A DNA stretch of 64,000 nt from Candidatus Woesebacteria bacterium RIFCSPLOWO2_01_FULL_39_61 (GCA_001793155.1 MGHI01000005.1:23-64022); one strand, 5' to 3'. Positions 14,859 to 61,610 are shown, numbered from the stretch's first letter. Notes: generated from the letters alone by a model not told the origin. Program-made: numbers and translations.

Positions 14859-14864
14859 ACTCCT

Positions 14865-14892
14865 TACTCTATTGATTCGAATCAATAGAGTA
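14865..14892. repeat. Perfect 28-bp palindrome TACTCTATTGATTC|GAATCAATAGAGTA
   Basis: Reverse complement of the first 14 nt equals the last 14 nt. Central core is TTCGAA. Confidence 0.8.
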
Positions 14893-14897
14893 AAAAT

Positions 14898-27304: not shown

Positions 27305-27835
27305 CTATTTTTCGCTAGGGGAGAGTGATTGGAGTTTTTTAATTATTTCTTCGTGTTGTCTCCATGCAATTTTTGGTAGTTTATTTAATTTGAACCAATC
27401 GATGTTTGTGGTTTCTGTTCGGTCCTTTATTTTTAATTTGCCTTTAGCGACCACTTTATAAAAAAGTCTAAAGTGACCGGGAGCTCGCGGATCATCATCT
27501 GCCTGCGTTATTTTAATAAACCTTGCTTTTATTAGAGTTAATCCGGTTTCTTCTTTGATCTCTCTTTTCAAGGTGTCGATTGGATGTTCTCCGAAATCTA
27601 TAAAACCCGCAGGAAGATTCCATTCTTGAAAATGAGGTGGGATTCCTCTTCTTACTAAAAGGACTTTGCCCTTTTTAAATATAATCGCGTGAACAGACGA
27701 AAAAACATGAGGATAATAGACCCAACCGCATTTGGGGCAGATTTTCCTTTTCTTTTTGTCGACATCCTCTTTAAAAGATAATTTAGTCCCGCAAAGAGGG
27801 CAGAATTTGTATGTTGGGGGTTTTATATTCAGCAT
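27305..27835 (-). CDS. Nudix hydrolase with N-terminal zinc ribbon (NudC-like)
   Basis: CPLCG…CPKCG zinc ribbon followed by the Nudix box GFIDFGEHPIDTLKREIKEETGL. Confidence 0.6.
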   Translation of the reverse strand: MLNIKPPTYKFCPLCGTKLSFKEDVDKKKRKICPKCGWVYYPHVFSSVHAIIFKKGKVLLVRRGIPPHFQEWNLPAGFIDFGEHPIDTLKREIKEETGLTLIKARFIKITQADDDPRAPGHFRLFYKVVAKGKLKIKDRTETTNIDWFKLNKLPKIAWRQHEEIIKKLQSLSPSEK

Positions 27836-30820: not shown

Positions 30821-31771
30821 TTACATTCTAGATTGAACATTCTTTAGTGCTAACTCTGCGCATCTTATTCGATTTTTGTGTTTTAGATAGGGAAGAAGCT
30901 GAGTTAAACACAAATTGATAGCCTGTTTATCTCTAATATTAACCCTATAAAAATCACCGTTATGTATTCTTTCACCATGTCTTCCCGCTTTTGTCTCCAA
31001 GAGAATAGTGTTTTTGACTCTGTTTTTTTGTAGGAACTGATGAATTTGGTCGAGTATTGTCTTATCATATGAACCAATTCTGAAAGTAGCCCGGCCGTTA
31101 TAGACACCAATTGATCCTTCTGCGTCCGAATAGCCTGCAAGAAATCCAAAAAATAATTTTTTTGATCGGACAATCCATCTTGGGATTGAGGAGTGTTTTG
31201 TGAGCAAGAAAGAGAATGAGTTATTCACTGTGGCGGTAAAATGATATACACTCGGCTTGCTTTTGGGTCGACTAATCCAAACCGGTCCATATTTTGAGAA
31301 AAGTTTTTTTAGTAATAGTACCTGCTCTACCCTAGTTGTATTAGATTTTACAATTATAGATGAGATGGGTGATCTTTGTGCAACATTCAGATCTCCAATG
31401 CGAAATCCTATTAAGTATGCCTTTTCTAATAAATTATTAGAAAATTTATATTTAATGTGGAACGTATTGGCTTCCCACGGAGATCGAGTACTAATATCGA
31501 ATTTTCTAAACTTTCTTAGTACCGCAGATGGCGTACAACCGATTTGCTTACCGATTTCTTTTAATGAAAACCCTGACTTGTAAAGCTTTTCAAGAGCTGT
31601 TTTGTTAGTCGAAACAATTTTCCTCGGTCGTGTCGAAATTTTATACTTTTTTAACCAATAGTAAACGGTTTTAGAGTCGCATCCAGACTTAGCTGCTATA
31701 TCATAAGTCGATAAATGACCTTGGATATACCAACGTTCTAATTGCACTGGAGTGAAGAATGAGGAGGGCAT
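30821..31771 (-). CDS. Free-standing LAGLIDADG homing endonuclease with N-terminal tandem HTH domains
   Basis: Two LAGLIDADG motifs (YLIGFRIGDLNV and FFGFLAGYSDAEGSIG). The N-terminus has two resolvase-like HTH segments. Confidence 0.6.
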   Translation of the reverse strand: MPSSFFTPVQLERWYIQGHLSTYDIAAKSGCDSKTVYYWLKKYKISTRPRKIVSTNKTALEKLYKSGFSLKEIGKQIGCTPSAVLRKFRKFDISTRSPWEANTFHIKYKFSNNLLEKAYLIGFRIGDLNVAQRSPISSIIVKSNTTRVEQVLLLKKLFSKYGPVWISRPKSKPSVYHFTATVNNSFSFLLTKHSSIPRWIVRSKKLFFGFLAGYSDAEGSIGVYNGRATFRIGSYDKTILDQIHQFLQKNRVKNTILLETKAGRHGERIHNGDFYRVNIRDKQAINLCLTQLLPYLKHKNRIRCAELALKNVQSRM

Positions 31772-38100: not shown

Positions 38101-38196
38101 AAACAAATTGAAGAGTCGGATTTCAAATGTTCGCACGGTTACCTTTGCGATGAACAAGAATGCGAGTATAAACTGTTTTGCAAAGTAGATGGTTGA
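35176..38196 (+). CDS. UvrD/PcrA-like SF1 helicase fused to C-terminal PD-(D/E)xK (RecB/Cas4-like) nuclease with 4-Cys cluster
   Basis: GTG start. Walker A GAGTGKT. UvrD motifs (DEFQDTN, VGDDSQSIY, KNYRS, VTRA). C-terminus has …DRVDEY…EIIDYKTG plus CSHGYLCDEQECEYKLFC. Confidence 0.7.
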   Translation: MAETTEKKLEAISKPPKLSLVGFEKPFGSLEHPNSKGVLKWAVNKDQLEAIRYKKGPLLIIAGAGTGKTTVITERIKDLIEKNLAKASEILALTFTEKAAREMEERVDVALPYGYTQMWVSTFHSFCDRILRQEGLHIGLNPKYKLMTEAETIQFVRKNLFNYELSYFRPLGNPTKFVSGMIQHFGRLQDEDISPSDYIRWVQNQNDKSKLKNEELQIEIAKWDELSKAYRTYEELKVKEGLMDFGDLIVKTLKLFRDRRNVLKEYQEKFKYILVDEFQDTNVAQYELMKLLSPPKDNGNLTVVGDDSQSIYKFRGAAISNILYFKKDYKKVKTVVLTKNYRSTQTILDSAYKLIQYNNPDTLEAKLGIDKNLVSVKTKNEEPVELIHKDRVENEAEAVAKKIRELASEKKYDWEDFAILVRANNHAEPFVRAFARNAIPYQFLGPGRLFRQPEIVDLISYLKVLYDFDDSVSFYRLISIDYFDINARDLVKISNYARRLNLTLFEATEKVDDIYVSDDTKYKIKKIIEILNRHIKLIKKETAGQLLYYFLEDSGLLTKLLNPDTSEAEKKAANISKFFDKLKTYEVDHEDATILAVVDWIELASEIGESPLAADVDWTKINAVNILTAHSAKGLEFPVVYLVNLVSQRFPTIERREQIPIPDELIKEVLPIGDYHLQEERRLFYVGMTRAMERLYLTAADYYGEGKREKKLSPFIFEALGEETVSSEKLKMGSEQLSFLDYKPPVIDSLPTTHYPQSFHIDYLSYSQIETFRVCPLHFKLKYIYKLPTPATSSQSFGNSFHATMKGFYESVKGGEKPTLKLMEAKLAENWINQGYLSKSHENRSYEKAKSFIKHYLENNFDPKIIPVTMEQPFTIRMDGFRVGGKIDRVDEYKDFIEIIDYKTGATPLTQSQADKDLQLSVYALAATEIPEPPFSRNPKEVKLTLMYFDTPQTVSTKRTKGQLLEARKMIEDYRKQIEESDFKCSHGYLCDEQECEYKLFCKVDG

Positions 38197-38914
38197 AAAA
38201 ATGGAAATAAAGATATTTTCTACAATAGAAGGAGCGAAAAACGCTATAGGCCTTGCGGTAATAATAGATGTTTTAAGAGCTTGTACGACAATTCCCGTTT
38301 TATTCGATAAAGGTGCAGTTGAAATTATTCCTGTAAGAACTCTGGACGAAGCTCTCGCTTATGAGAAAAAAGGCTTTGTTTTGGTGGGAGAAGGAGAACA
38401 TGGTCAGGCTCATGACGCATTTCATCACATAAATTCTCCCTCTGAAGTTGTTAACGAAGATTTTACCGGAAAGAGAATTGTTTTAAGAAGTAATAATGCG
38501 ACCCAAGCAATAATGGATGCAGCAAAATCTGAAGACACCGTTTTAGCTTCTTTTGTCAACTTAAATGCGGTAGTGGATTATATTCGTAAAAATAAACCAA
38601 AAGTTGTGTCTTTGGTTGCTTTAGGGAGACTTGGTGAAAGGGGACTCGAAGACGATGAATGTGCGGGGGCAATTAAAAGCATATTGGAAAATAAACCTTA
38701 CGATTTTGAAGATATGAAAAAGCGGGTTTCAGTGTGTGATTGTGCAGTTCTAGTTAGAGAGACCTTGGGTAAGCCGAAAGACGTGGATATGGGACTAGAA
38801 GTAAATTCTTATCCAATTGTTCCTAGAGTTGATACAGAAAATAAAATTAAGGTGATTAGACCCTACTTTGAAATACAAGAAAATAATAATAAGCGTCTTC
38901 TAAACAGGTCTTGA
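38189..38914 (+). CDS. 2-phosphosulfolactate phosphatase (ComB) family protein
   Basis: VIIDVLRACTTI… is ComB-like. Overlaps the helicase stop. Confidence 0.45.
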   Translation: MVEKMEIKIFSTIEGAKNAIGLAVIIDVLRACTTIPVLFDKGAVEIIPVRTLDEALAYEKKGFVLVGEGEHGQAHDAFHHINSPSEVVNEDFTGKRIVLRSNNATQAIMDAAKSEDTVLASFVNLNAVVDYIRKNKPKVVSLVALGRLGERGLEDDECAGAIKSILENKPYDFEDMKKRVSVCDCAVLVRETLGKPKDVDMGLEVNSYPIVPRVDTENKIKVIRPYFEIQENNNKRLLNRS

Positions 38915-38944
38915 CAAAAGACCTGTTTTTGGTATCATTAGTCA

Positions 38945-39187
38945 ATGACAAGCGTATCTATTTCCGAACTAAAAGCAAATCCTTCCGCGGTACTTTCTGC
39001 TGCAGATGATTATCCCATTTCTATTAAGAAAAGAAATAAAACAGCTGGTTATGTAGTTGGAAAGGATATTTTTGAAAAACTGGTTACTTTTGTCGAAGAC
39101 TATATAGATAAAAAGGCTATAGAGGATGCAGATTATACTAGAGGAACTAGTCTTGATGACTTTGTGAAAGAACTGGGTTTGGAATAA
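38945..39187 (+). CDS. Type II antitoxin (Phd/YefM- or RelB-like)
   Basis: 80 aa. Its stop abuts the toxin start (TAAATG). Confidence 0.5.
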   Translation: MTSVSISELKANPSAVLSAADDYPISIKKRNKTAGYVVGKDIFEKLVTFVEDYIDKKAIEDADYTRGTSLDDFVKELGLE

Positions 39188-39451
39188 ATGGAAGTAGTTG
39201 TTACCCCTCAAGCTAAAAAGCAAATCAAAAAGCTCTCCAAAGTTACACAGATTTTGATTGTTGAAAAACTGAAAAAATTAGAATTAGGAATTTTAGTAAA
39301 TTTTCAAAAACTGTCCGGTTATAAAGGTGCCTTTAGAGTGCGAGTGGGAAATTACAGAATAGTTTACAGGTTACTTAAGGGTAAAGCTTATGTTGTATTA
39401 GTTGGTCACAGAAAGGAGATTTATTTACTCTTGAGGAAGTTGTTGGGTTAA
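39188..39451 (+). CDS. RelE/ParE family toxin
   Basis: …YRIVYRLLKGKAYVVLVGHRKEIY RelE/ParE C-terminal signature. Confidence 0.6.
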   Translation: MEVVVTPQAKKQIKKLSKVTQILIVEKLKKLELGILVNFQKLSGYKGAFRVRVGNYRIVYRLLKGKAYVVLVGHRKEIYLLLRKLLG

Positions 39452-39463
39452 AATCAAAAAACG

Positions 39464-39940
39464 ATGAAAATTGATGAAAGTTGGTATAAAAAACCCAAAA
39501 ATAAAAACTTTCCGACTCAAGATATGGCCGGTGGAATCGTGGTTCGCAGGGAAGGCGGAAAGGTTATGATAGCCTTAGTCGGCGATAAAAAAATTCCAGA
39601 CTTTATTTTACCAAAAGGAAGGATAGAAAAAGGCGAGTCGGAGTTAAATGCGGCCAAGAGAGAAATTGCGGAGGAAACAGGCCTGCAAAGTCTTAAGTTG
39701 ATAAAGAAACTTGGAATTAAAGAAAGATTCACATTTAAGAAAAATTACTGGAATACATACTACTATTTTTTATTTGTTACGGACCAAGAGCATGGAAACC
39801 CTGATTTGCAGGAGGGTGAGAAAGACTATTTTACCGAATGGTTTAACATAGATAACTTGCCTCTGATGTTTTGGCCAGAACAAGGGCAGTTGATTGAAGA
39901 AAATAGAGAAAAGATTAAAAGACTCATAAAATACGCTTAG
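39464..39940 (+). CDS. Nudix hydrolase
   Basis: Nudix box GRIEKGESELNAAKREIAEETGL. Confidence 0.6.
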   Translation: MKIDESWYKKPKNKNFPTQDMAGGIVVRREGGKVMIALVGDKKIPDFILPKGRIEKGESELNAAKREIAEETGLQSLKLIKKLGIKERFTFKKNYWNTYYYFLFVTDQEHGNPDLQEGEKDYFTEWFNIDNLPLMFWPEQGQLIEENREKIKRLIKYA

Positions 39941-39944
39941 TTAC

Positions 39945-39968
39945 ACTATGATGATTCGAATCATCATA
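39945..39968. repeat. Perfect 24-bp palindrome CTATGATGATTC|GAATCATCATAG
   Basis: Reverse complement of the first half equals the second half. Shares a GATTCGAATC core with the 14865 palindrome. Confidence 0.8.
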
Positions 39969-40025
39969 GTAGCGAATATATTAATTGTTTACAGATTATC
40001 CTTGGATTAAAATAGCTATAAAGAT

Positions 40026-43000
40026 ATGCAGAAACAAATTGAACCTTCAGGAGATCCAATCTCTCCCAATAATATCTTTTATTTAATAAAAACGAGAATT
40101 TTAAAAAAGATACCTCTGACAAAAAGAACTTTTCTTTCGAAGGTAGCTTTATTATCCGTCATTTTACTCTTGCTTTATTCATTAAATCTATTTTTAAGTT
40201 TAAGACAAAAAGACAGTCTATTTAAAAGTCGAGGAATTGATTATTTAGCTGTTATTTCTGCAAGTCCTCGGGGTACAACAAAAAGTAATAAACCAAAAAT
40301 AATTGTTAAGTTCAATCTTCCCGTAACAGCACACCATATAGGTGACTACTTTTACATTAATCCTTATGTAAAAGGTAATCTTAAACAAGGATCGAGTTTG
40401 GAAGAGATAGTCTTCGAGCCTGAGGTTTCCTTACCTCGTGGTGCTTATGTTACAGTTTCTCTAAAAACTGGACTTCCCAGTAATTACGGGAAGAAACTCC
40501 TCAGTGATTATTCTTTCAATTTTACTGTCAGTCACGAAGCAAATACGGTTGCCTTTACTAGCAAAGAGTGGTCAGGTAAATTTATGAGTTTTCAAGCCTT
40601 ATATGGAACAGACATAACACTTAAGGTGGGTTCCGACATATCATATCCATCGGTTAGGATTTATAAAGCAGACGTAGGATTACTTTTAGAAAGTTTGATT
40701 TATAAAGTGAAAGATAGTAATTACAGATATCCGAGGCAGGGCGAATATATAGAAAAATCTGTAAATACTGATAAATTAAAGTTAATAAAAGAGTACAAAG
40801 AGGTTAAAGACAACGACAAAATAAATTTCAAAGGAGAAAAGGGAATCTATTTATTCCAGGCATTAGAAGGAGATTTGGTAACTAATAGCGCATGGGTTTC
40901 CCTAAACGACATTGGTATTCATTTAAGACAGGATGATGAAAAAATTTTCCTAGCTGCTCAAAGTTTAATCAGCGGTGAACCTGAAAGTGGAATCGATATT
41001 AATTTCTATAAACTTGAAGACGAACCGAAAACTTTAGCAATTCATACACTTTCAGGAATACAGGAATATCCATTTACGTATCCTGAAAGACTTGATTTAG
41101 TTATAGGGAAAAAGGGCAATGAAGTAATTATTATTCCGGTTGAAATTCCCAACAGCCAGGCAGAAATACAGCTAACTCAGAGTTTGAATAATAAATATCA
41201 GATTTTTCTTTATACCGATCGGCCTATTTATAAAAGTAATGCAAAAGTTTCTTTTAGAGGAATAGTAAGAAAAGATAACGACGCTCTTTATAAATTGCCG
41301 GATGTAACTAAAGTTAGGGTATATTTAGGTGGCGATTCTAGTTCCAAGTTTGACAAAGAGTTCGATGTTTCGGAGGAAGGAATATTTTATGGAGAATTTG
41401 ACATACCGAAAGATATAGCTAACGGCACTCGATATCTATATGCAACTACTATTCTTGATAAACAAAAATATTCTTCGGAAGGAGGTTACACTTACTTTGA
41501 CGTTTTTGAATATAAAAAACCCGTCTTTGGACTTGAAGTAGAGGTTGATAAAAGTGAATACATACGTTCTGAAAAAATCTTAGCAAAAATTAAAGGTAAA
41601 TACTTTGATGGCAGGGCTTATGCAGATCAGTCAGTGAATCTTACCATATATAGTCGTGACTATTACGAAACCGAAAAAGCAGTTTACAACAGCTCGTTTA
41701 AACTAAATGGTTGGGGAGGCATGTGTGGAGCGGGAGGTTTTGAGGATTACTATGGACAAAAAGTCGGAGAACCAAAAGAGATACAGCTTGACAAAAACGG
41801 AGAAGCCCAGGTTGAGTTTTCGACAAAGGATCTTACATCTATATTAAGTCAGGAGGTAACATTTCTTGTTCAAAAGAAAGACGAGAATGAAAATAATATT
41901 ACAGCTGCAAAAAACGCCATTGTCCATCAGGGGCAATTTAATGTTTTCTTTCGACCCGGTCCAAATAGAATTTCTTATAATGAAGAGTTTACACTCGCCT
42001 TTTATACAGAGAATCTTGGTGGAGAAAAATTAAGCGAAAAGGAATTTTCTTACGAGATCTTTGAAGAAAGTTGGGGTTCGAGCAATAAACCTTCAAAGAG
42101 AGAGATAATAAAATCAGGAAATGTTAAGACAGACTACAATGGAATTGGACTTATTAAAGAAAAGTTAGAGACACTTGAGAGCGATGATTATCTTTATATT
42201 TCAATTAAAACTCTTGATTCTTTAAATAATGTAGTTGAAGCAAGGAAAGGGATACAATTTTTCAAACAAGGACAGAATAGATATCAAAATTGGGGTTACA
42301 ATTCAATCGAACAGACAGTTCTGAAAATCACTTCTTTCAGCAACTCTCTAAAAGTGGGAGAGCCTGCCAGTCTTGAAGTCATTTCGCCAAGCGATTTAGT
42401 GGTCTTTGGTTCTTTTGAAAGAGGAAGGGTATATATTCCTCAGTGGATTAAACTTTCAAAAGGCACGAATACTTTTAAATTTGACGTTATATCTGATTAT
42501 TCACCTTCAACTACTCCAACTTTTAGTTTCTTTTATAATGGAGAATATTTCATAGAGGGTTTAAGCCTTAACGTGCCTGCCCTTCATAAATTAATCGATG
42601 TTGAAATTTCAACCGACAAAGAAAAGTATAACCCGAGCGATACGGCAATAATTACAATAACTACAAAAGATAGAGCTGGAAACTTCATTTCAGTCGATGC
42701 TGGAATTGGAATAGTAGATGAAGCAATCTTTGCCCTTAGAAAAAATGCTGCAGCTCCGCTTCATTCATCATTTTATTATTTCAGAAGGCGCTCCATCAAC
42801 TCTTCTTCGTCCTTAACTTGGATAGCAACATATAATTGGGACGGAGGCGGCGGAGGCGGCGGAGGATTTGAAGCATTTCTGAAGGATAGCGATACTCTAT
42901 ACTGGAATCCGGCTCTTAAAACAGGAACAGATGGACAGGTAAAAGTAGAAGTACCAGTTGGAGAAACCGAAACTACATGGAGGGTGCTTGTTTATGCTTC

Positions 43001-43058
43001 ATCAGACGACACAAAAGTTGGTCAATCTTCAAAAGATTTTCTGGTATCCGGACAATAA
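40026..43058 (+). CDS. Alpha-2-macroglobulin-family protein, MG-domain region only (no thioester domain)
   Basis: N-terminal TM anchor. The C-terminal end GGGGGGGGFEAF…YWNPALKTGTDGQ…TTWRVLVYAS matches the A2M MG-domain signature. The protein stops immediately after it. Confidence 0.5.
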   Translation: MQKQIEPSGDPISPNNIFYLIKTRILKKIPLTKRTFLSKVALLSVILLLLYSLNLFLSLRQKDSLFKSRGIDYLAVISASPRGTTKSNKPKIIVKFNLPVTAHHIGDYFYINPYVKGNLKQGSSLEEIVFEPEVSLPRGAYVTVSLKTGLPSNYGKKLLSDYSFNFTVSHEANTVAFTSKEWSGKFMSFQALYGTDITLKVGSDISYPSVRIYKADVGLLLESLIYKVKDSNYRYPRQGEYIEKSVNTDKLKLIKEYKEVKDNDKINFKGEKGIYLFQALEGDLVTNSAWVSLNDIGIHLRQDDEKIFLAAQSLISGEPESGIDINFYKLEDEPKTLAIHTLSGIQEYPFTYPERLDLVIGKKGNEVIIIPVEIPNSQAEIQLTQSLNNKYQIFLYTDRPIYKSNAKVSFRGIVRKDNDALYKLPDVTKVRVYLGGDSSSKFDKEFDVSEEGIFYGEFDIPKDIANGTRYLYATTILDKQKYSSEGGYTYFDVFEYKKPVFGLEVEVDKSEYIRSEKILAKIKGKYFDGRAYADQSVNLTIYSRDYYETEKAVYNSSFKLNGWGGMCGAGGFEDYYGQKVGEPKEIQLDKNGEAQVEFSTKDLTSILSQEVTFLVQKKDENENNITAAKNAIVHQGQFNVFFRPGPNRISYNEEFTLAFYTENLGGEKLSEKEFSYEIFEESWGSSNKPSKREIIKSGNVKTDYNGIGLIKEKLETLESDDYLYISIKTLDSLNNVVEARKGIQFFKQGQNRYQNWGYNSIEQTVLKITSFSNSLKVGEPASLEVISPSDLVVFGSFERGRVYIPQWIKLSKGTNTFKFDVISDYSPSTTPTFSFFYNGEYFIEGLSLNVPALHKLIDVEISTDKEKYNPSDTAIITITTKDRAGNFISVDAGIGIVDEAIFALRKNAAAPLHSSFYYFRRRSINSSSSLTWIATYNWDGGGGGGGGFEAFLKDSDTLYWNPALKTGTDGQVKVEVPVGETETTWRVLVYASSDDTKVGQSSKDFLVSGQ

Positions 43059-43078
43059 GTATTGAATGGAGAACTACT

Positions 43079-43258
43079 CATTATTTTCTATTTCTAACAG
43101 ATCAGCATAACGGTGTCCAAAATTTACAGGAAGAAGAAAACCATGTCCTTGAATGGTTTGACTTTAATAAACTACCACCCTTTTTTTGGCCGGAGCAAAG
43201 GCAGTTGATTGAAGAAAATAGAGAAAAGATAAAGAAATTAGTTTCTGTATCCCAATAG
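43079..43258 (+). pseudogene. Relic 3' fragment of a Nudix gene paralogous to 39464-39940
   Basis: Encodes HYFLFLTDQ…EWFDFNKLPPFFWPEQRQLIEENREKIKKL, which matches the C-terminus of the 39464 Nudix. The two share a 29-nt identical DNA stretch (CAGTTGATTGAAGAAAATAGAGAAAAGAT). Confidence 0.6.
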
Positions 43259-43873
43259 ACAATAATGATTTGTTTTATCCAAATGGATATCGGCGATAGA
43301 GAAGTTTTTGAAAATACTTTTCAACTCGTCTTTTGTAAAATAATGATGCGGCAATCCTTTTTCGCTTCCGTCAAGTGGGATAGATGTATTTGGCTCAATT
43401 TTTTTAAAACTTGATCCCTGATTTTTAAATTTGGGCACTGTAACAAAAATAAGACCCTGCATTTTTAATACTCTTTCAATTTCTCTTACAATTTTCCTAA
43501 TCTCCTCAATTTTTGCATGATGAATTACTTGGACAGAAACGACCGCGTCAAAGAAATTATCTTTAAATGGTAGTTTACCTCCCATGTCTTGCAATATAAA
43601 TTTTGCCTTTAATTTTTTTCCCCTTAACCACCTTTTTGTAAGTTTTATTGCCGTTTTCGAGTTATCCAAACCATAAACGCTAAGTCCGTTTTGGGCCATG
43701 AAGATCAGATTACGGCCAGTTCCACAACCCAAATCCAATACTTTATTTAACCCACTCTTTTTTAAAAGATTTGTGATTTTAGGAATATCCTCCTGTGGGC
43801 TTTTTAAATATATACCAACTTCTTTAAATTTCTTTCCCAAACAGTTTCTCTTACCATGATTAAATTTTAGCAA
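43238..43873 (-). CDS. Class I SAM-dependent methyltransferase
   Basis: VLDLGCGTGRN motif I. Confidence 0.65.
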   Translation of the reverse strand: MLKFNHGKRNCLGKKFKEVGIYLKSPQEDIPKITNLLKKSGLNKVLDLGCGTGRNLIFMAQNGLSVYGLDNSKTAIKLTKRWLRGKKLKAKFILQDMGGKLPFKDNFFDAVVSVQVIHHAKIEEIRKIVREIERVLKMQGLIFVTVPKFKNQGSSFKKIEPNTSIPLDGSEKGLPHHYFTKDELKSIFKNFSIADIHLDKTNHYCLLGYRN

Positions 43874-44487: not shown

Positions 44488-45024
44488 TTATTGTGCCGGA
44501 GTTTTTTGGTTGTACCAATCCTGTGGATCGATATTTTTTGTTGTTTCACCTTTCTTGACTTCAACAACAATTGGTTTATGTGAAGTGCAGTTTACCGAAA
44601 GTCCGCAAGTTACGAACTCTGAATAGTAAGCTTTATAAAAAAGAATATCGTTTGTATTAGCATAAACACGATATTGTCCTATCGGGGCTTCGAGTAGATA
44701 GCCTTCACCAAAAGTATATTTTGAATCCTTTATATGACTGTCTGTGCAGGCAATTGTTTGTCCTTGCAAGTTTTCCGCACAAACTTTCATGTCGGTCGGA
44801 ATACCTTCTGAAGGAAAGGATAAAGAACCTTCCAGAAAACCTTTTTCCGGAGGAGTTGTAGGTTGAGGAACAAGATTGCTTGAAATGTCGGTATCAAGGG
44901 GAGTAGTTGTTTTTTTACTACTTAATATTTTTTGGTTCAGAAAGTACAGTAATGTTACAATCGCTAATACGGTTATTACAATTGTTCCTGCGACAAGAAG
45001 GGGGATATTTTTTCGTGTCGGCAT
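44488..45024 (-). CDS. Secreted/membrane-anchored hypothetical protein
   Basis: N-terminal TM plus Cys-containing extracellular domain. Confidence 0.35.
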   Translation of the reverse strand: MPTRKNIPLLVAGTIVITVLAIVTLLYFLNQKILSSKKTTTPLDTDISSNLVPQPTTPPEKGFLEGSLSFPSEGIPTDMKVCAENLQGQTIACTDSHIKDSKYTFGEGYLLEAPIGQYRVYANTNDILFYKAYYSEFVTCGLSVNCTSHKPIVVEVKKGETTKNIDPQDWYNQKTPAQ

Positions 45025-51226: not shown

Positions 51227-53326
51227 TTACTTAACTTTGTAAACTGTAATACCGGGAGTTTGAAAAACTACCCCGCCTAACGAACGGAATTTATCCTCCT
51301 TAATTAATTGAAATTTTTGCCGTTCAAAAGGACCAATAATAACAAATTTCACTTGGTATTTTTCGAGTAAACGCTTGGTGAGCTCTATATCTTCGGATTG
51401 ATAAATCTGGTCAATTTCGCCGACCCTTTCTTGGGGAAATTTGGAATCTCCACGCCATAGCCATTCGTGCACAAACCAGCCCGAAACAGTCGGCAGACCG
51501 GAATATGAAGAAATAATATTAAATTCAGTGTAACTGTCTCCGGGAGCTTCAAGAATTACAGGTTGATCGGGAACTGAAATTCTGAACCACCCAACCGCTT
51601 GGTAAATTTCCGGGTACCTTTCTTTCAACCAAGTATTTCCGGATAAGCCCTTGTAATTTTTAAGATCTGAATAGTAAGACTTAATCCCGAATGCTGGATA
51701 CATAAATATAGCGCTAAAAATTACAACGTAGATTAATAAAAGTGGAATTTTGAGCTTTAATTCTTTCAGAAAGATTAAAGTTCTTATCGCAATATATCCG
51801 CAAAGCGTATAGAAAATTACGAAAGCTTGATAAGTTAACTTAAACATGGTATTTGCTCTGTAGTATGAGGCCGTATAGATATCTTTTACATAAATAACTT
51901 CAGGCAATAGGATTAGTATCCAAGCGGAGGCTAGTAAAGATAAAGTAAAAAGGTCCGAAAAGGAAACGTTTTTGAAACGTTTTGTCTCGAGAAAAAGAGT
52001 CAACCAATAAAGTATGGTTATAATTAACGGAAATCCCCAAAGTATGGCGAGCTGCCAGAGGGGTGAGTGCGTTTTGACCAGCGCCACACCTTGGGCAATA
52101 GATTCAAAATGGATAATGAAAAGTAAAGAGGTAAGAAGGGCAATTAAAAGCATGGTTCCGGTTTGTAAGGCCGTGTGAATGAATGTCTTTATCCTAAGGC
52201 GATGCTTTTTGAGATTAAATATAAAAATCGTAACACCAGAAACCAGCAAGTAATTACCAAAATCCCAAGTATTGGCCATAAAAAAGATTCCCAAGGTAAA
52301 ACCCAAAACAAGGGTCTTTTTATAGTTGAATGAAGCAAAGTCTTTCATAAAGGAAGCAAGCAACCCAATAAACATAAGGACAATGGGAAGATTGATAAGA
52401 TGCGGGTGAAGATCCGATACGATGAAAGAATATATCGGAAATTCGTGAATAGTTTTATCGTTTGTTTCCGGATTATAGCCTATGAAACGGGTTGCGTCTG
52501 GATACCAGTATTTGTCTTTGCCCTCTTTTAATACATAAACCGCGCTGTGGAAGTTACCGGCAAGGATAAGTGCAAATCCCGATAATATTCCGGCTGCGAT
52601 TACGGCTCTTGTTTTAAGACGCACTTCAGAATTCCCCAAGCTGCCGAGCTTGGGGACGGATGAAGCAAGACTAGAAGCCTTGGCTTCACTTTTCGGTTTT
52701 AGCTGGGATAGAAGGAACGTTGCAATTGCGAAGGATCCCGAAAGACTCAACCCCATTATGGTAGCGAGCATTAAATTATAGGTGATATAAGAGGGTATCT
52801 GTGTTATTTTTGTGGCTACGGCTACCCAAAGATGGCCGAACCAATAGTAATTTATGGATTTTCCTGCAAACCACATATCGGCTGGTGGTAAATATTTTGT
52901 ACGTAAGATGGAATTTATAAAGCCGAAATCCATAAGTTTTTCCAAACCCAAAATATCCGGCTGGTGGGTGCGGACGTAACTCCAGGTAAGAAGTCCAAAC
53001 GTAAATAGTATTTCTTGCAGTATTAATACCCTAATATTTTTTTTGAACATCTTGAAAAGTTTATCTTTATGTTTTATCAAGAAAGCAAGATTGATTATTA
53101 TCCAAAAGCCGATTACTAGATAAAGATAAAAGTTAGAAAAGGGAGCAATTTTTAAAGAAGAAAGGACAAAGATTGTGAAGGTAATAAATATAAATCCTAC
53201 AGTTTTAATGAAGGCGGATGATAGAAAGCGGTCTTTAAAAAGCAAAAACGTAACCGGGGCTGAAATTAGTCCTACAAGAAAAAATGTTGACCACCAAGTA
53301 AAAATATTTAGTAAATCCTGGTTCAT
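51227..53326 (-). CDS. DUF2298 (YYY-domain) polytopic membrane protein, putative GT-C-like glycosyltransferase
   Basis: …GLEKLMDFGFINSILRTKYLPPADMWFAGKSINYYWFGH… matches the DUF2298 signature. Confidence 0.5.
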   Translation of the reverse strand: MNQDLLNIFTWWSTFFLVGLISAPVTFLLFKDRFLSSAFIKTVGFIFITFTIFVLSSLKIAPFSNFYLYLVIGFWIIINLAFLIKHKDKLFKMFKKNIRVLILQEILFTFGLLTWSYVRTHQPDILGLEKLMDFGFINSILRTKYLPPADMWFAGKSINYYWFGHLWVAVATKITQIPSYITYNLMLATIMGLSLSGSFAIATFLLSQLKPKSEAKASSLASSVPKLGSLGNSEVRLKTRAVIAAGILSGFALILAGNFHSAVYVLKEGKDKYWYPDATRFIGYNPETNDKTIHEFPIYSFIVSDLHPHLINLPIVLMFIGLLASFMKDFASFNYKKTLVLGFTLGIFFMANTWDFGNYLLVSGVTIFIFNLKKHRLRIKTFIHTALQTGTMLLIALLTSLLFIIHFESIAQGVALVKTHSPLWQLAILWGFPLIITILYWLTLFLETKRFKNVSFSDLFTLSLLASAWILILLPEVIYVKDIYTASYYRANTMFKLTYQAFVIFYTLCGYIAIRTLIFLKELKLKIPLLLIYVVIFSAIFMYPAFGIKSYYSDLKNYKGLSGNTWLKERYPEIYQAVGWFRISVPDQPVILEAPGDSYTEFNIISSYSGLPTVSGWFVHEWLWRGDSKFPQERVGEIDQIYQSEDIELTKRLLEKYQVKFVIIGPFERQKFQLIKEDKFRSLGGVVFQTPGITVYKVK

Positions 53327-61416: not shown

Positions 61417-61610
61417 ATTCGTTTCATACTTTCTTTAATAAAGAAAGTATGACAAAGAAATTTAAAGACTAGATTGTGCTGTTCAATCAGCAGTAGTTCC
61501 CGAGTATAATCTAACAAACTTTAAATTTCAATGACCTTGAAATACCCGGTAACTCACTTGTCAAACTTTGAAATATGCAAAAAAATATTTTGGGTATAAG
61601 CTAAATTAAG

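What the first reader, a model, noticed from the sequence alone, without database searches (positions are those of the whole stretch)
39464..43258. Truncated alpha-2-macroglobulin-like gene embedded between a Nudix gene and a relic copy of that Nudix gene's 3' end; perfect palindrome at the upstream junction
The 1010-aa protein has an A2M-type MG-domain region and stops right after the GGGGGGGGFEAF…YWNP…TTWR segment. The thioester and receptor-binding domains are absent. Immediately downstream (43079-43258) is a frameless remnant encoding the last about 60 residues of a Nudix protein paralogous to the intact Nudix gene immediately upstream (39464-39940), including a 29-nt identical stretch. 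A 24-bp perfect palindrome (39945-39968) sits at the upstream junction. This pattern suggests insertion or rearrangement within a Nudix locus (a duplication-like scar). Alternatively, recombination between tandem Nudix paralogues deleted the 3' part of the A2M gene.
Basis: partly seen in the sequence, partly recalled or inferred. Interest (0 to 1): 0.55.

Follow-up and report, generated by a model that had tools for sequence, protein, structure and literature searches.

The report
Intact short macroglobulin gene, decayed Nudix neighbour
The 'truncated' macroglobulin-like gene is a complete member of a conserved short protein family of Woesebacteria-type bacteria, and the Nudix fragment after it is what remains of a second Nudix gene that lost its middle by deletion: ordinary genome turnover, not a broken gene.

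Summary
The palindrome is 26 bp, the identical run is 31 nt, and the relic is one open frame. The main interpretation fails. The 1010-aa A2M-like ORF is not truncated. About 30 homologues (33-68% identity) and about 57 clusters at 50% identity end at the same residue. None has a thioester CxEQ motif. In the model the end falls after the seventh strand of the MG domain that is split by the bait-position loop.

The relic is not a copy of the upstream Nudix (57-60% identity). It is 78-80% identical to Nudix orthologues that occupy this same chromosomal slot in other Woesebacteria. In the closest relative (L002), the A2M stop overlaps a perfect 22-nt Nudix start (ATGA). The window has ATA/TAA at that position, in phase with the relic. 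So a Nudix gene once followed A2M and lost about codons 4-94 and its start codon.

The intact upstream Nudix arrived in a 1.1-kb lineage-specific cassette: promoter, Phd, ParE, Nudix, palindrome. The palindrome is the last element of that cassette. Three assemblies are identical across both junctions. The finding is real but ordinary; the short A2M family is the more interesting by-product.

The parts
38189..38914 (+). 2-phosphosulfolactate phosphatase-like (ComB-type) gene. Its last 17 codons (38864-38914) have no counterpart in the L002 orthologue and mark the left edge of the lineage-specific cassette.
   Evidence: PF04029 E 1.9e-42. It is 82% identical to L002 over residues 1-225. L002 ends ...KVIRPV*, whereas the window reads ...KVIRPYFEIQENNNKRLLNRS*.
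38902..38928 (.). Perfect inverted repeat, 11-nt arms with a 5-nt spacer, followed by a T run. It overlaps the ComB stop codon and the -35 box of the cassette promoter. It could be a terminator for the upstream operon or an operator for the antitoxin.
   Evidence: sequence.
38911..38938 (+). Promoter-like site TTGACA-16-TATCAT with an upstream TG (11 of 12 matches), 7 nt before the Phd start.
   Evidence: This is a consensus match only.
38945..39187 (+). Phd/YefM-type antitoxin gene.
   Evidence: PF02604 E 4.4e-7. Absent at this position in L002.
39188..39451 (+). ParE/RelE-type toxin gene.
   Evidence: PF05016 E 2e-11. Absent at this position in L002.
39464..39940 (+). Intact Nudix hydrolase gene (Nudix'). 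It is the immigrant copy, carried by the cassette.
   Evidence: PF00293 E 1.4e-18. Its closest homologues are 66-69% identical (P0122-P0125). P0122 lies in the same slot directly after UvrD/PDDEXK.
39885..39915 (+). The 31-nt run identical to 43200-43230 in the relic.
   Evidence: 0 differences here, against 4-10 differences in each of the other 20 orthologue pairs over the same 31 nt.
39945..39970 (.). 26-bp perfect palindrome, the last element of the cassette. As RNA it forms an 11-bp stem with a UCGA loop. No T run follows.
   Evidence: Unique in the window. Fold -15.9 kcal/mol, z -3.5. Not called as a terminator. No equivalent upstream of A2M genes in 11 relatives.
39971..40025 (+). Native upstream region of the A2M-like gene. 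It is alignable with the region upstream of the L002 orthologue.
   Evidence: Shared blocks are GCGA..GAATATA and GATTAAAATAG..AAGAT.
40026..43058 (+). Complete gene for a short, thioester-less A2M-like protein. It has an N-terminal membrane helix, an array of MG domains, and a conserved Gly-rich loop (residues 906-955) at the bait position. It ends after the split MG domain.
43055..43066 (+). Probable degenerate start of the former downstream Nudix gene: ATA AGT ATT GAA against the family's ATG AAA ATT GAT. The ATA overlaps the A2M stop TAA in the way ATG overlaps TGA in L002.
   Evidence: 8 of 11 nt match, and the triplet is in phase with the relic frame.
43067..43258 (+). Nudix relic: codons about 96-159 of the resident Nudix gene plus the stop. 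It has no Nudix box and no start codon.
43200..43230 (+). The 31-nt run identical to 39885-39915. Probably a gene-conversion tract.
43238..43873 (-). SAM-dependent methyltransferase gene, convergent with the relic. Its 3' end overlaps the last 21 nt of the relic. It is absent at this position in the relatives examined (L002, L085/L086, L099, L169).
44488..45024 (-). 178-aa gene with no family assignment. In relatives its homologue lies directly after the Nudix gene (L085, L086) or directly after the A2M gene (L099).

Best explanation
The region is a variable gene slot of a Woesebacteria (candidate phyla radiation) chromosome. The slot lies between a conserved UvrD/PDDEXK helicase gene and a conserved convergent block (FemAB-like, FemAB, UvrD, then LytR on the + strand).

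The A2M-like gene is an intact, ancestral occupant of that slot. It encodes a membrane-anchored array of MG domains that ends at a domain boundary. It never had the thioester, CUB or receptor-binding parts.

A resident Nudix gene once lay directly after it, with its ATG overlapping the A2M stop (ATGA). In this lineage a 1.1-kb cassette (38864-39970) was inserted at the 3' end of the ComB-type gene. The cassette carries its own promoter, a Phd-ParE toxin-antitoxin pair, a second and divergent Nudix gene of the same family, and a terminal 26-bp palindrome.

With two Nudix genes present, the resident copy became dispensable (inferred). It lost its start codon. The single change ATG to ATA also turned the A2M stop from TGA into TAA. 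It then lost about codons 4-94, including the catalytic Nudix box, by an in-frame internal deletion of about 270 nt. Only the last 64 codons remain. The order of insertion and deletion is not known.

The relic shows no decay, so the loss is probably recent. The 31-nt identity with the intact copy is most simply a short gene-conversion tract between the two copies. The palindrome is most likely a transcript-end hairpin that travelled with the cassette. It is not a recombination scar.
For: A2M gene intact:
- 21 aligned homologues (33-67% identity) all stop at ...GQxxx[DE]F.V plus 1-3 residues; four members (P0011, P0026-P0028) carry a slightly longer tail (up to about 13 residues).
- 31 of 31 short-family proteins lack CxEQ, while 89 of 89 full-length hits have it.
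- About 57 clusters at 50% identity, 950-1070 aa long, are matched to their last residue. In 1500-2100-aa A2Ms the profile end aligns at about residue 885-925 and the protein continues.
- The AF2 model (pLDDT 74.6) has 3 strands, then a disordered loop at 906-955, then 4 strands to residue 1007. That makes one 7-strand MG domain.
- In bacterial A2Ms the bait region lies within MG8 (PMC4498604).
- Foldseek matches ECAM at 2e-42 and SaA2M at 5e-40.

Slot and synteny:
- A2M follows UvrD/PDDEXK (with or without ComB) in L002/L089, L082, L171, L172 and the window.
- A Nudix gene of this family follows UvrD/PDDEXK in L083, L084, L085/L086, L087/L088; L169 and L170 carry the same Nudix gene ahead of the convergent genes, but their contigs do not show the helicase.

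Relic identity:
- It is 78-80% identical to P0126, P0135 and P0137, against 57-60% to the neighbour.
- The P0135 locus reads UvrD/PDDEXK, Nudix, then the convergent hyp178 homologue, which matches the window's right flank.

Former A2M-Nudix junction:
- In L002 the A2M stop TGA overlaps ATGAAAATTGATAAAAGTTGGT. This is 22 of 22 nt identical to the Nudix start of L170.
- The window has ATAAGTATTGA at the same position, in phase with the relic.

Relic undecayed:
- It shows 0 deviations at 21 columns that are at least 80% conserved in 74 family members.
- dN/dS against L085 is 0.065, like intact-intact pairs.

Cassette:
- Its boundaries were set against L002.
- It has a promoter-like site.

Not an assembly artefact:
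- L001, L173 and L174 have 0 mismatches over 8-23 kb across both junctions.
Against: - No relative with A2M followed by a full-length Nudix was found. The ancestral arrangement is inferred from a 22-nt stub in L002 and an 8-of-11-nt remnant in the window.
- The window's start remnant is weak on its own.
- The relic's complete lack of decay fits a recent loss but equally fits continued selection, which this explanation does not predict.
- The relic looks mosaic: its 5' 120 nt are L085-like and its 3' third is L087-like (best split p 3e-4 uncorrected, 55 splits tried). This suggests a more complex recombination history than one deletion.
- Causation by redundancy is inferred, not shown. L002 and L099 lost the downstream Nudix without any replacement copy in the DNA examined (L099 is a 1.7-kb contig).
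- The three identical assemblies may derive from the same site or even the same reads.
- That the C-terminal strands pack with strands 858-898 into one domain is read from secondary structure only. Model coordinates were not inspected.
Confidence: 0.75

Rival explanations
1. One-step import. A foreign block (ComB ... A2M, with or without the toxin-antitoxin-Nudix cassette) entered by recombination anchored in the UvrD/PDDEXK gene. Its right end joined illegitimately inside the resident Nudix gene. The relic is then the right-hand scar of that import, not the product of a later internal deletion.
For: In relatives the slot holds either Nudix or A2M, which looks like alternative alleles. In Nudix-only genomes the Nudix gene follows UvrD/PDDEXK directly. 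The relic and its right flank (hyp178) match the L085-type arrangement. The relic shows mosaic ancestry.
Against: L002 carries a perfect Nudix start overlapping the A2M stop. This shows that A2M and a complete Nudix gene were once properly joined. The window has a matching in-phase remnant at the same position. A2M-short occupies the slot in five lineages at 56-74% identity, which argues for old residence.
Confidence: 0.12
2. The relic is still useful and kept by selection. It could be a small expressed protein (from the ATG at 42977 or by frame change at the A2M end). It could serve as spacer or terminator region between the convergent A2M and methyltransferase genes. Or it could act as a homology arm that allows reversible loss of the A2M gene.
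For: There is no stop, no frameshift and no change at 21 conserved positions. The frame is open for 93 codons from an ATG inside A2M. The 31-nt perfect direct repeats flank the A2M gene. The methyltransferase 3' end overlaps the relic by 21 nt.
Against: It lacks the Nudix box and about 60% of the fold, so it cannot be a hydrolase. The family's A2M proteins all end at the same residue, so read-through or frameshift fusion is not conserved. Relatives do without any such spacer: in L099 and L171 the genes abut or overlap. The 90%-identity cluster of the intact Nudix has a single member sequence, so no chimeric excision product has been seen. dS is saturated, so the low dN/dS may date entirely from before the truncation.
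Confidence: 0.08
3. A full-length A2M gene was cut short by recombination between tandem Nudix paralogues, or an A2M fragment was inserted into a Nudix gene with duplication of that gene's 3' end.
For: PF00207 is matched over only half of its profile. Nudix sequence lies on both sides, with a 31-nt identical run.
Against: The short form is a conserved family with one common end point and no thioester motif. The two Nudix sequences are the most divergent pair compared: 65% nt identity, dN 0.26. Each is closer to orthologues in other species than to the other.
Confidence: 0.02
4. Assembly chimera. The junctions at about 43058 and about 39970 were created by mis-joining contigs at the repeated Nudix sequence.
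For: The genome is assembled from a metagenome. Repeats of 31 nt can in principle mislead assemblers.
Against: Contigs from ENA (ERZ27254844) and JGI (3300002503) are identical to the window across both junctions, with 0 mismatches over 8.3-23 kb. The exact A2M and ParE proteins are indexed in 64 and 84 blocks of the collection; the contigs that were read grouped into one or two near-identical contexts. The junctions are not at the 31-nt repeat.
Confidence: 0.02

Closest known systems
Bacterial alpha-2-macroglobulins with a thioester (E. coli ECAM/YfhM, Salmonella SaA2M)
   Same: An array of MG (macroglobulin) beta-sandwich domains, with best Foldseek matches 5a42 and 4u48. Hits to Pfam MG2, A2M_BRD and A2M. 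Anchored to the membrane at the N-terminus. A disordered loop is inserted in the MG domain that carries the bait region in ECAM (MG8; PMC4498604).
   Different: About 1000 aa instead of about 1650. It ends after that MG domain, so MG9, CUB, the thioester domain and the C-terminal MG domain are absent. There is no CxEQ motif. It has a predicted membrane helix rather than a lipoprotein anchor. The loop at the bait position is strongly conserved (HSSFYYFR..S.N.SSSLTWI...GGGGGGG), whereas bait regions are typically variable (my own knowledge).
Thioester-less bacterial A2Ms (Pseudomonas MagD / E. coli YfaS type)
   Same: A2M homologues that do not use a covalent thioester (PMC5764988 abstract).
   Different: From my own knowledge, not tested here: those proteins keep the full-length architecture of 1500-2000 aa, including a TED-like region. 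The short family lacks everything after the bait-carrying MG domain.
MG 'key ring' of complement C3 (beta chain / C3c)
   Same: The model matches C3 beta-chain and C3c chains over 640-750 columns (for example 2qki_A and 2a74_D, TM about 0.5 normalised to the target). The protein corresponds to the ring part only.
   Different: It is a bacterial, single-chain, membrane-anchored protein. No anaphylatoxin domain or processing site is evident.
Nudix hydrolases (PF00293; MutT / ADP-ribose pyrophosphatase type)
   Same: The intact gene is a regular member with a canonical Nudix box (sequence). The relic aligns with the C-terminal 40% of the same subfamily.
   Different: The relic has no Nudix box, no start codon and only 64 codons. 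The substrate of this subfamily is unknown, and all NCBIfam hits are far below their cut-offs.
Gene remnants left after a second copy arrives in the same locus, with type II toxin-antitoxin cassettes as the carried cargo
   Same: A Phd-ParE pair with its own promoter sits in a lineage-specific insertion next to the extra gene copy.
   Different: No integrase, transposase or terminal repeats were seen in the ORF and Pfam scans of the region. The cassette ends in a single perfect palindrome.

Membership tests
Alpha-2-macroglobulin / thioester-containing protein family | Array of MG (macroglobulin) domains | tested here: met
   Pfam MG2 E 1.4e-10, A2M_BRD E 9.8e-10, A2M E 3.2e-5. Foldseek matches ECAM at 2e-42 and SaA2M at 5e-40.
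Alpha-2-macroglobulin / thioester-containing protein family | Thioester motif CxEQ within a helical thioester domain | tested here: not met
   No CxEQ in any of 31 short-family proteins, against 89 of 89 full-length hits. No TED Pfam hit (PF07678) in the window protein or in the precomputed domains of P0001-P0031.
Alpha-2-macroglobulin / thioester-containing protein family | CUB domain and C-terminal MG (receptor-binding) domain after the bait-carrying MG domain | tested here: not met
   The protein ends at residue 1010, after the fourth strand following the loop. In full-length A2Ms the profile end aligns at about residue 885-925 and about 650 more residues follow.
Alpha-2-macroglobulin / thioester-containing protein family | Protease-sensitive bait region inserted in an MG domain | tested here: inconclusive
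   A 50-residue disordered loop sits at the right position (PMC4498604). However, it is highly conserved and Gly-rich. Protease sensitivity cannot be tested here.
Nudix hydrolase (intact gene 39464-39940) | Nudix fold and Nudix box Gx5Ex7REUxEExGU | tested here: met
   PF00293 covers residues 24-145. The motif GRIEKGESELNAAKREIAEETGL is read directly from the translation.
Nudix hydrolase (relic 43064-43258) | Nudix box and complete fold | tested here: not met
   The relic aligns only with residues 96-158. No Pfam hit. The Nudix-box region is deleted.
Pseudogene / gene remnant (relic) | Homology to a functional gene together with loss of essential parts (start codon, catalytic motif) | tested here: met
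Pseudogene / gene remnant (relic) | Signs of neutral decay (stops, frameshifts, changes at conserved sites) | tested here: not met
   No stop or frameshift, and 0 of 21 conserved columns changed. dN/dS is 0.065 against the nearest orthologue, with dS saturated.
Intrinsic (rho-independent) terminator (palindrome 39945-39970) | G+C-rich stem-loop followed by a T run | tested here: not met
   The stem is stable but A+U-rich (-15.9 kcal/mol) and no T run follows. The terminator scan does not report it.
Integron attC / mobile-element end (palindrome) | Imperfect palindrome with conserved core sites, plus a nearby integrase or transposase | tested here: not met
   The palindrome is perfect, only 26 bp long and occurs once. 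No recombinase is among the neighbouring ORFs. The attC core consensus was compared from memory only.
Type II toxin-antitoxin module (38945-39451) | Adjacent small antitoxin and toxin genes of paired families | tested here: met
   PhdYeFM_antitox E 4.4e-7 and ParE_toxin E 2e-11. The genes abut (38945-39187 and 39188-39451). A promoter-like site lies upstream.

The most novel reading that the evidence does not exclude
The short A2M-like proteins form a distinct family restricted, so far as seen here, to Microgenomates-type CPR bacteria. They are a membrane-anchored MG 'key ring' with no thioester warhead. They carry two invariant Gly-rich loops: GGMCG at about residue 564-568 and the poly-Gly loop at the bait position. 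Such a protein would act by a mechanism unlike covalent protease trapping, for example as a surface receptor or shield in the episymbiotic lifestyle. Separately, the undecayed Nudix relic and its 31-nt perfect repeat with the intact copy might be maintained as a homology arm that allows occasional excision of the A2M gene.
Probability: 0.15. Interest if true: 0.55.

Novelty: new variant of a known kind. Interest (0 to 1): 0.3.

Why it matters
For the scan, this removes a false alarm. A gene that looks cut off against the textbook domain order is a complete member of a conserved family, and the 'scar' belongs to its neighbour.

For biology, there are two modest points. First, A2M homologues exist as a conserved ring-only form without thioester, CUB or receptor-binding domains. 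At least about 57 clusters at 50% identity were found. This shows that the MG ring can be a functional unit on its own, and it gives A2M structural biologists a natural minimal version to study. Second, the locus is a clear small example of how tiny CPR genomes turn over genes in a fixed slot. The same family of Nudix gene is replaced, deleted in different ways in three lineages, and patched by short recombination tracts.

Tried and rejected
- Nudix homology reaching into the A2M 3' end (tblastn alignment from 42968). Rejected: the added 33 residues are about 21% identical, and that sequence is constrained by the conserved A2M C-terminus.
- A -1 frameshift or read-through fusion of A2M to the relic. 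Rejected: all family members stop at the same place.
- The palindrome as a conserved regulatory site of the A2M gene. Rejected: no palindrome with arms of at least 7 nt matching it was found upstream of the gene in 11 relatives.
- The palindrome as a repeated element. It occurs once in the window and only in copies of the same locus. A 30-bp palindrome at 14864-14893 shares a 12-nt core, but two hits against 0.29 expected is weak.
- The palindrome as a canonical terminator or an attC-like site. Not met.
- Defence-system reading of the cassette. PADLOC gives only a weak PDC-S07 hit for Nudix, and a mad2-like hit for the methyltransferase domain.
- NCBIfam has no model for the short A2M protein.
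- Profile search against PDB sequences aligns only residues 89-544 with ECAM, so it could not place the C-terminus.
- Literature search for A2M in CPR bacteria found nothing on a short form.
- Search for a relative with A2M followed by a full-length Nudix. None was found among L002-L005, L082, L089-L101, L171 and L172.
- Pairwise dS to date the truncation. Synonymous sites are saturated, so this is not informative.

Full report
**What is there.** The window comes from Candidatus Woesebacteria bacterium RIFCSPLOWO2_01_FULL_39_61 (100% match of the A2M-like and Nudix proteins). The flagged ORFs are real.

- A 158-aa Nudix gene lies at 39464-39940 (PF00293, E 1.4e-18).
- A 1010-aa A2M-like gene lies at 40026-43058. 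It hits MG2, A2M_BRD and Big_5, and PF00207 over profile positions 1-49 of 92 only.
- A Nudix-like stretch at 43064-43258 is 57% identical to the last 63 residues of the upstream Nudix (E 3e-24).
- The palindrome is 26 bp and perfect (39945-39970) and unique in the window.
- The longest identical DNA run between the two Nudix sequences is 31 nt.
- The relic is one open frame, not frameless.

**The A2M-like gene is complete.** A protein search found about 30 proteins of 978-1039 aa, 35-68% identical over more than 90% of the query. The next hits are 1470-1690-aa A2Ms at 21-27% identity.

- In an alignment of 21 short proteins, every one ends at the same place...GQxxx[DE]F.V plus 1-3 residues, with four members (P0011, P0026-P0028) carrying a slightly longer tail (up to about 13 residues). 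The poly-Gly run and the YWNP and TTW motifs are conserved.
- None of the 31 short proteins has CxEQ. All 89 full-length hits do.
- A profile search of 1.84 billion representatives finds about 57 clusters at 50% identity, 950-1070 aa long, matched to their last residue. In 1500-2100-aa A2Ms the profile end aligns near residue 885-925 and the protein continues.
- The AlphaFold model (pLDDT 74.6, pTM 0.65) has a membrane helix at 37-61 and an all-beta array. At the C-terminus there are three strands (858-898), a disordered loop (906-955, the Gly-rich segment) and four confident strands (957-1007). Three plus four strands make one MG domain split by a loop.
- In bacterial A2Ms the bait region lies within MG8, which is MG6 in eukaryotic numbering (PMC4498604).
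- The half match to PF00207 is therefore the second half of that domain, and the protein ends at a domain boundary. This last step is inferred from secondary structure, not from coordinates.
- Foldseek confirms the fold: ECAM 2e-42, SaA2M 5e-40, and C3 beta chain/C3c.

**The locus is a variable slot.** In related Woesebacteria the flanks are conserved. On the left are Trp-repressor-like, RmuC and UvrD/PDDEXK (+). On the right are FemAB-like, FemAB and UvrD (all -), then LytR (+) and DUF2298 (-). Between the flanks the content varies.

- A Nudix gene of this family follows UvrD/PDDEXK, with overlapping stop and start, in L084, L085/L086 and L087/L088, and after one intervening gene in L083. L169 and L170 carry the same Nudix gene ahead of the convergent genes, but their contigs do not show the helicase.
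- The short A2M gene follows UvrD/PDDEXK in L082, L171 and L172. It follows UvrD/PDDEXK-ComB in L002/L089.
- Only the window has A2M together with Nudix sequence.

**The relic is not a copy of its neighbour.**

- Against 84 family members, the relic is 78-80% identical to P0126, P0135 and P0137. The neighbouring gene (60%) ranks about 24th.
- At DNA level the two window sequences are the most divergent pair compared: 65% identity, dN 0.26.
- The P0135 locus reads UvrD/PDDEXK (69% identical to the window's), Nudix, then a convergent homologue of the window's 178-aa gene (59%). That matches the window's right flank.
- The intact upstream copy is closest to P0122 (68%). P0122 also sits in the slot after UvrD/PDDEXK in its own genome.
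- The two are therefore orthologues from different lineages now sharing one genome.

**How the relic arose.** In L002, the closest species with a long contig (A2M 68%), the A2M stop TGA overlaps ATGAAAATTGATAAAAGTTGGT. This is identical over 22 nt to the Nudix start of L170 (MKIDKSW). The sequence then runs into the 3' end of the next convergent gene. A Nudix gene was therefore once joined to A2M by an ATGA overlap, and in L002 almost all of it was deleted.

At the same position the window reads GGA CAA TAA GT ATT GAA TGG. In the relic frame this is ATA AGT ATT GAA TGG AGA, compared with ATG AAA ATT GAT in the family. The triplet overlaps the stop in the same way and is in phase with the relic, and 8 of 11 nt match. 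After GAA the sequence is identical to codons 95-102 of L170 (26-nt run).

The simplest reading is an in-frame internal deletion of about 270 nt (codons about 4-94, including the Nudix box) plus loss of the start codon. The single G-to-A change also turned the A2M stop from TGA into TAA. L099 (A2M 74% identical) goes from the A2M stop straight into the 178-aa gene homologue. The downstream Nudix was thus lost in three different ways in three lineages.

**The intact copy came in a cassette.** Compared with L002, ComB homology ends after ...KVIRP (window 38863). Homology upstream of A2M resumes at about 39971. The 1.1 kb in between contains the following.

- A new 17-codon ComB tail (16 residues plus the stop).
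- An 11-nt-arm inverted repeat (38902-38928).
- A strong promoter-like site (38911-38938, 11 of 12 matches).
- Phd, ParE and the intact Nudix gene.
- The 26-bp palindrome, as the last element.

The palindrome folds as an 11-bp stem with a UCGA loop (-15.9 kcal/mol, z -3.5). It has no T run and is not called as a terminator. Similar long perfect intergenic palindromes occur elsewhere in this genome and in relatives: window 14864-14893 and 61424-61452, L087 6905-6932 and L084 10653-10683. I read it as a transcript-end or regulatory hairpin carried by the cassette. This is the weakest part of the account.

**Age and oddities.**

- The relic has no stop or frameshift and no change at 21 columns conserved in at least 80% of 74 family members. 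Intact members deviate at 1.2 of these columns on average.
- dN/dS against L085 is 0.065, the same as between intact genes, but dS is saturated. The truncation is recent relative to these divergences, or the fragment is still constrained. The data cannot separate the two.
- The 31-nt run has 0 differences, whereas each of the other 20 orthologue pairs differs at 4-10 of those positions. This suggests a short conversion tract.
- Informative sites suggest the relic is mosaic. The first 120 nt are L085/L170-like and the rest is L087-like (best split p 3e-4 uncorrected over 55 splits).
- No chimeric Nudix, the expected product of recombination between the repeats, is in the 90%-identity cluster of the intact protein. 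That cluster has one member sequence.

**Artefact check.** Contigs from ENA (L001/L174) and JGI (L173) are identical to the window over 8.3-23 kb spanning both junctions. They may come from the same site.

**Verdict.** The headline interpretation (truncated A2M, duplication scar) is wrong, and the underlying intuition of a rearranged Nudix locus is right in a different form. This is ordinary gene turnover in a variable slot of a CPR genome. The most interesting by-product is the conserved ring-only, thioester-less A2M family, whose function is unknown. My guess, by inference only, is a non-covalent extracytoplasmic binding or shielding role.

Noticed in passing
window 14864-14893: A 30-bp perfect palindrome (TTACTCTATTGATTC|GAATCAATAGAGTAA) lies in the gap between two + strand genes. 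It shares the 12-nt core TGATTCGAATCA with the 26-bp palindrome at 39945-39970. As RNA it folds at -17.9 kcal/mol, z -6.6, and a second small hairpin follows. The two may belong to one class of hairpin element.
   Followed up: partly
window 61424-61452, 52633-52656 and 31422-31444; L087 6905-6932; L084 10653-10683: Further long perfect or near-perfect palindromes, with arms of 10-14 nt. The L087 and L084 ones lie in gaps between called genes; the gene context of the three window ones was not checked. The L087 one (ACTACCGATACATCGATGTATCGGTAGT) also begins ACTA, ends TAGT and is centred on TCGA.
   Followed up: no
window 38902-38928: An 11-nt-arm perfect inverted repeat followed by a T run spans the ComB stop codon and the -35 box of the Phd-ParE promoter-like site. 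It could be a terminator for the upstream operon, an antitoxin operator, or both.
   Followed up: partly
L002 10985-11017 (same in L089): A 22-nt perfect Nudix start (MKIDKSW) overlaps the A2M stop codon, then about 11 nt later the next convergent gene begins. This is an independent remnant of a Nudix gene after A2M.
   Followed up: yes
window 41701-41745 (A2M-like residues 559-574) and the family alignment A2: A second Gly-rich loop with an invariant motif GGMCG (G564, G565, M566, C567) is disordered in the model. The Cys is invariant in all 21 aligned proteins but is not part of a CxEQ thioester motif.
   Followed up: no
window 27335-27670 (- strand): A second, distant Nudix-like sequence (29% identity to the intact Nudix over 119 aa, tblastn E 8e-6).
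   Followed up: no
representative proteins P0248 (1738 aa) and P0251 (1354 aa): Two proteins score like short-family members (577 and 526 bits) but continue about 620 residues beyond the point where the short family ends. They may be fusions or an intermediate architecture.
   Followed up: no
L002, L003, L004 (record titles): Contigs that carry Woesebacteria-type genes and synteny are titled 'uncultured Gammaproteobacteria bacterium' in their public records. This is probably a mislabelled taxonomy.
   Followed up: no
window 43238-43873 (- strand): The methyltransferase between the relic and the 178-aa gene is absent at this position in the relatives examined (L002, L085/L086, L099, L169). It gives a PADLOC hit to the mad2 methyltransferase region (E 1.7e-21). 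It is another lineage-specific addition to the slot.
   Followed up: partly
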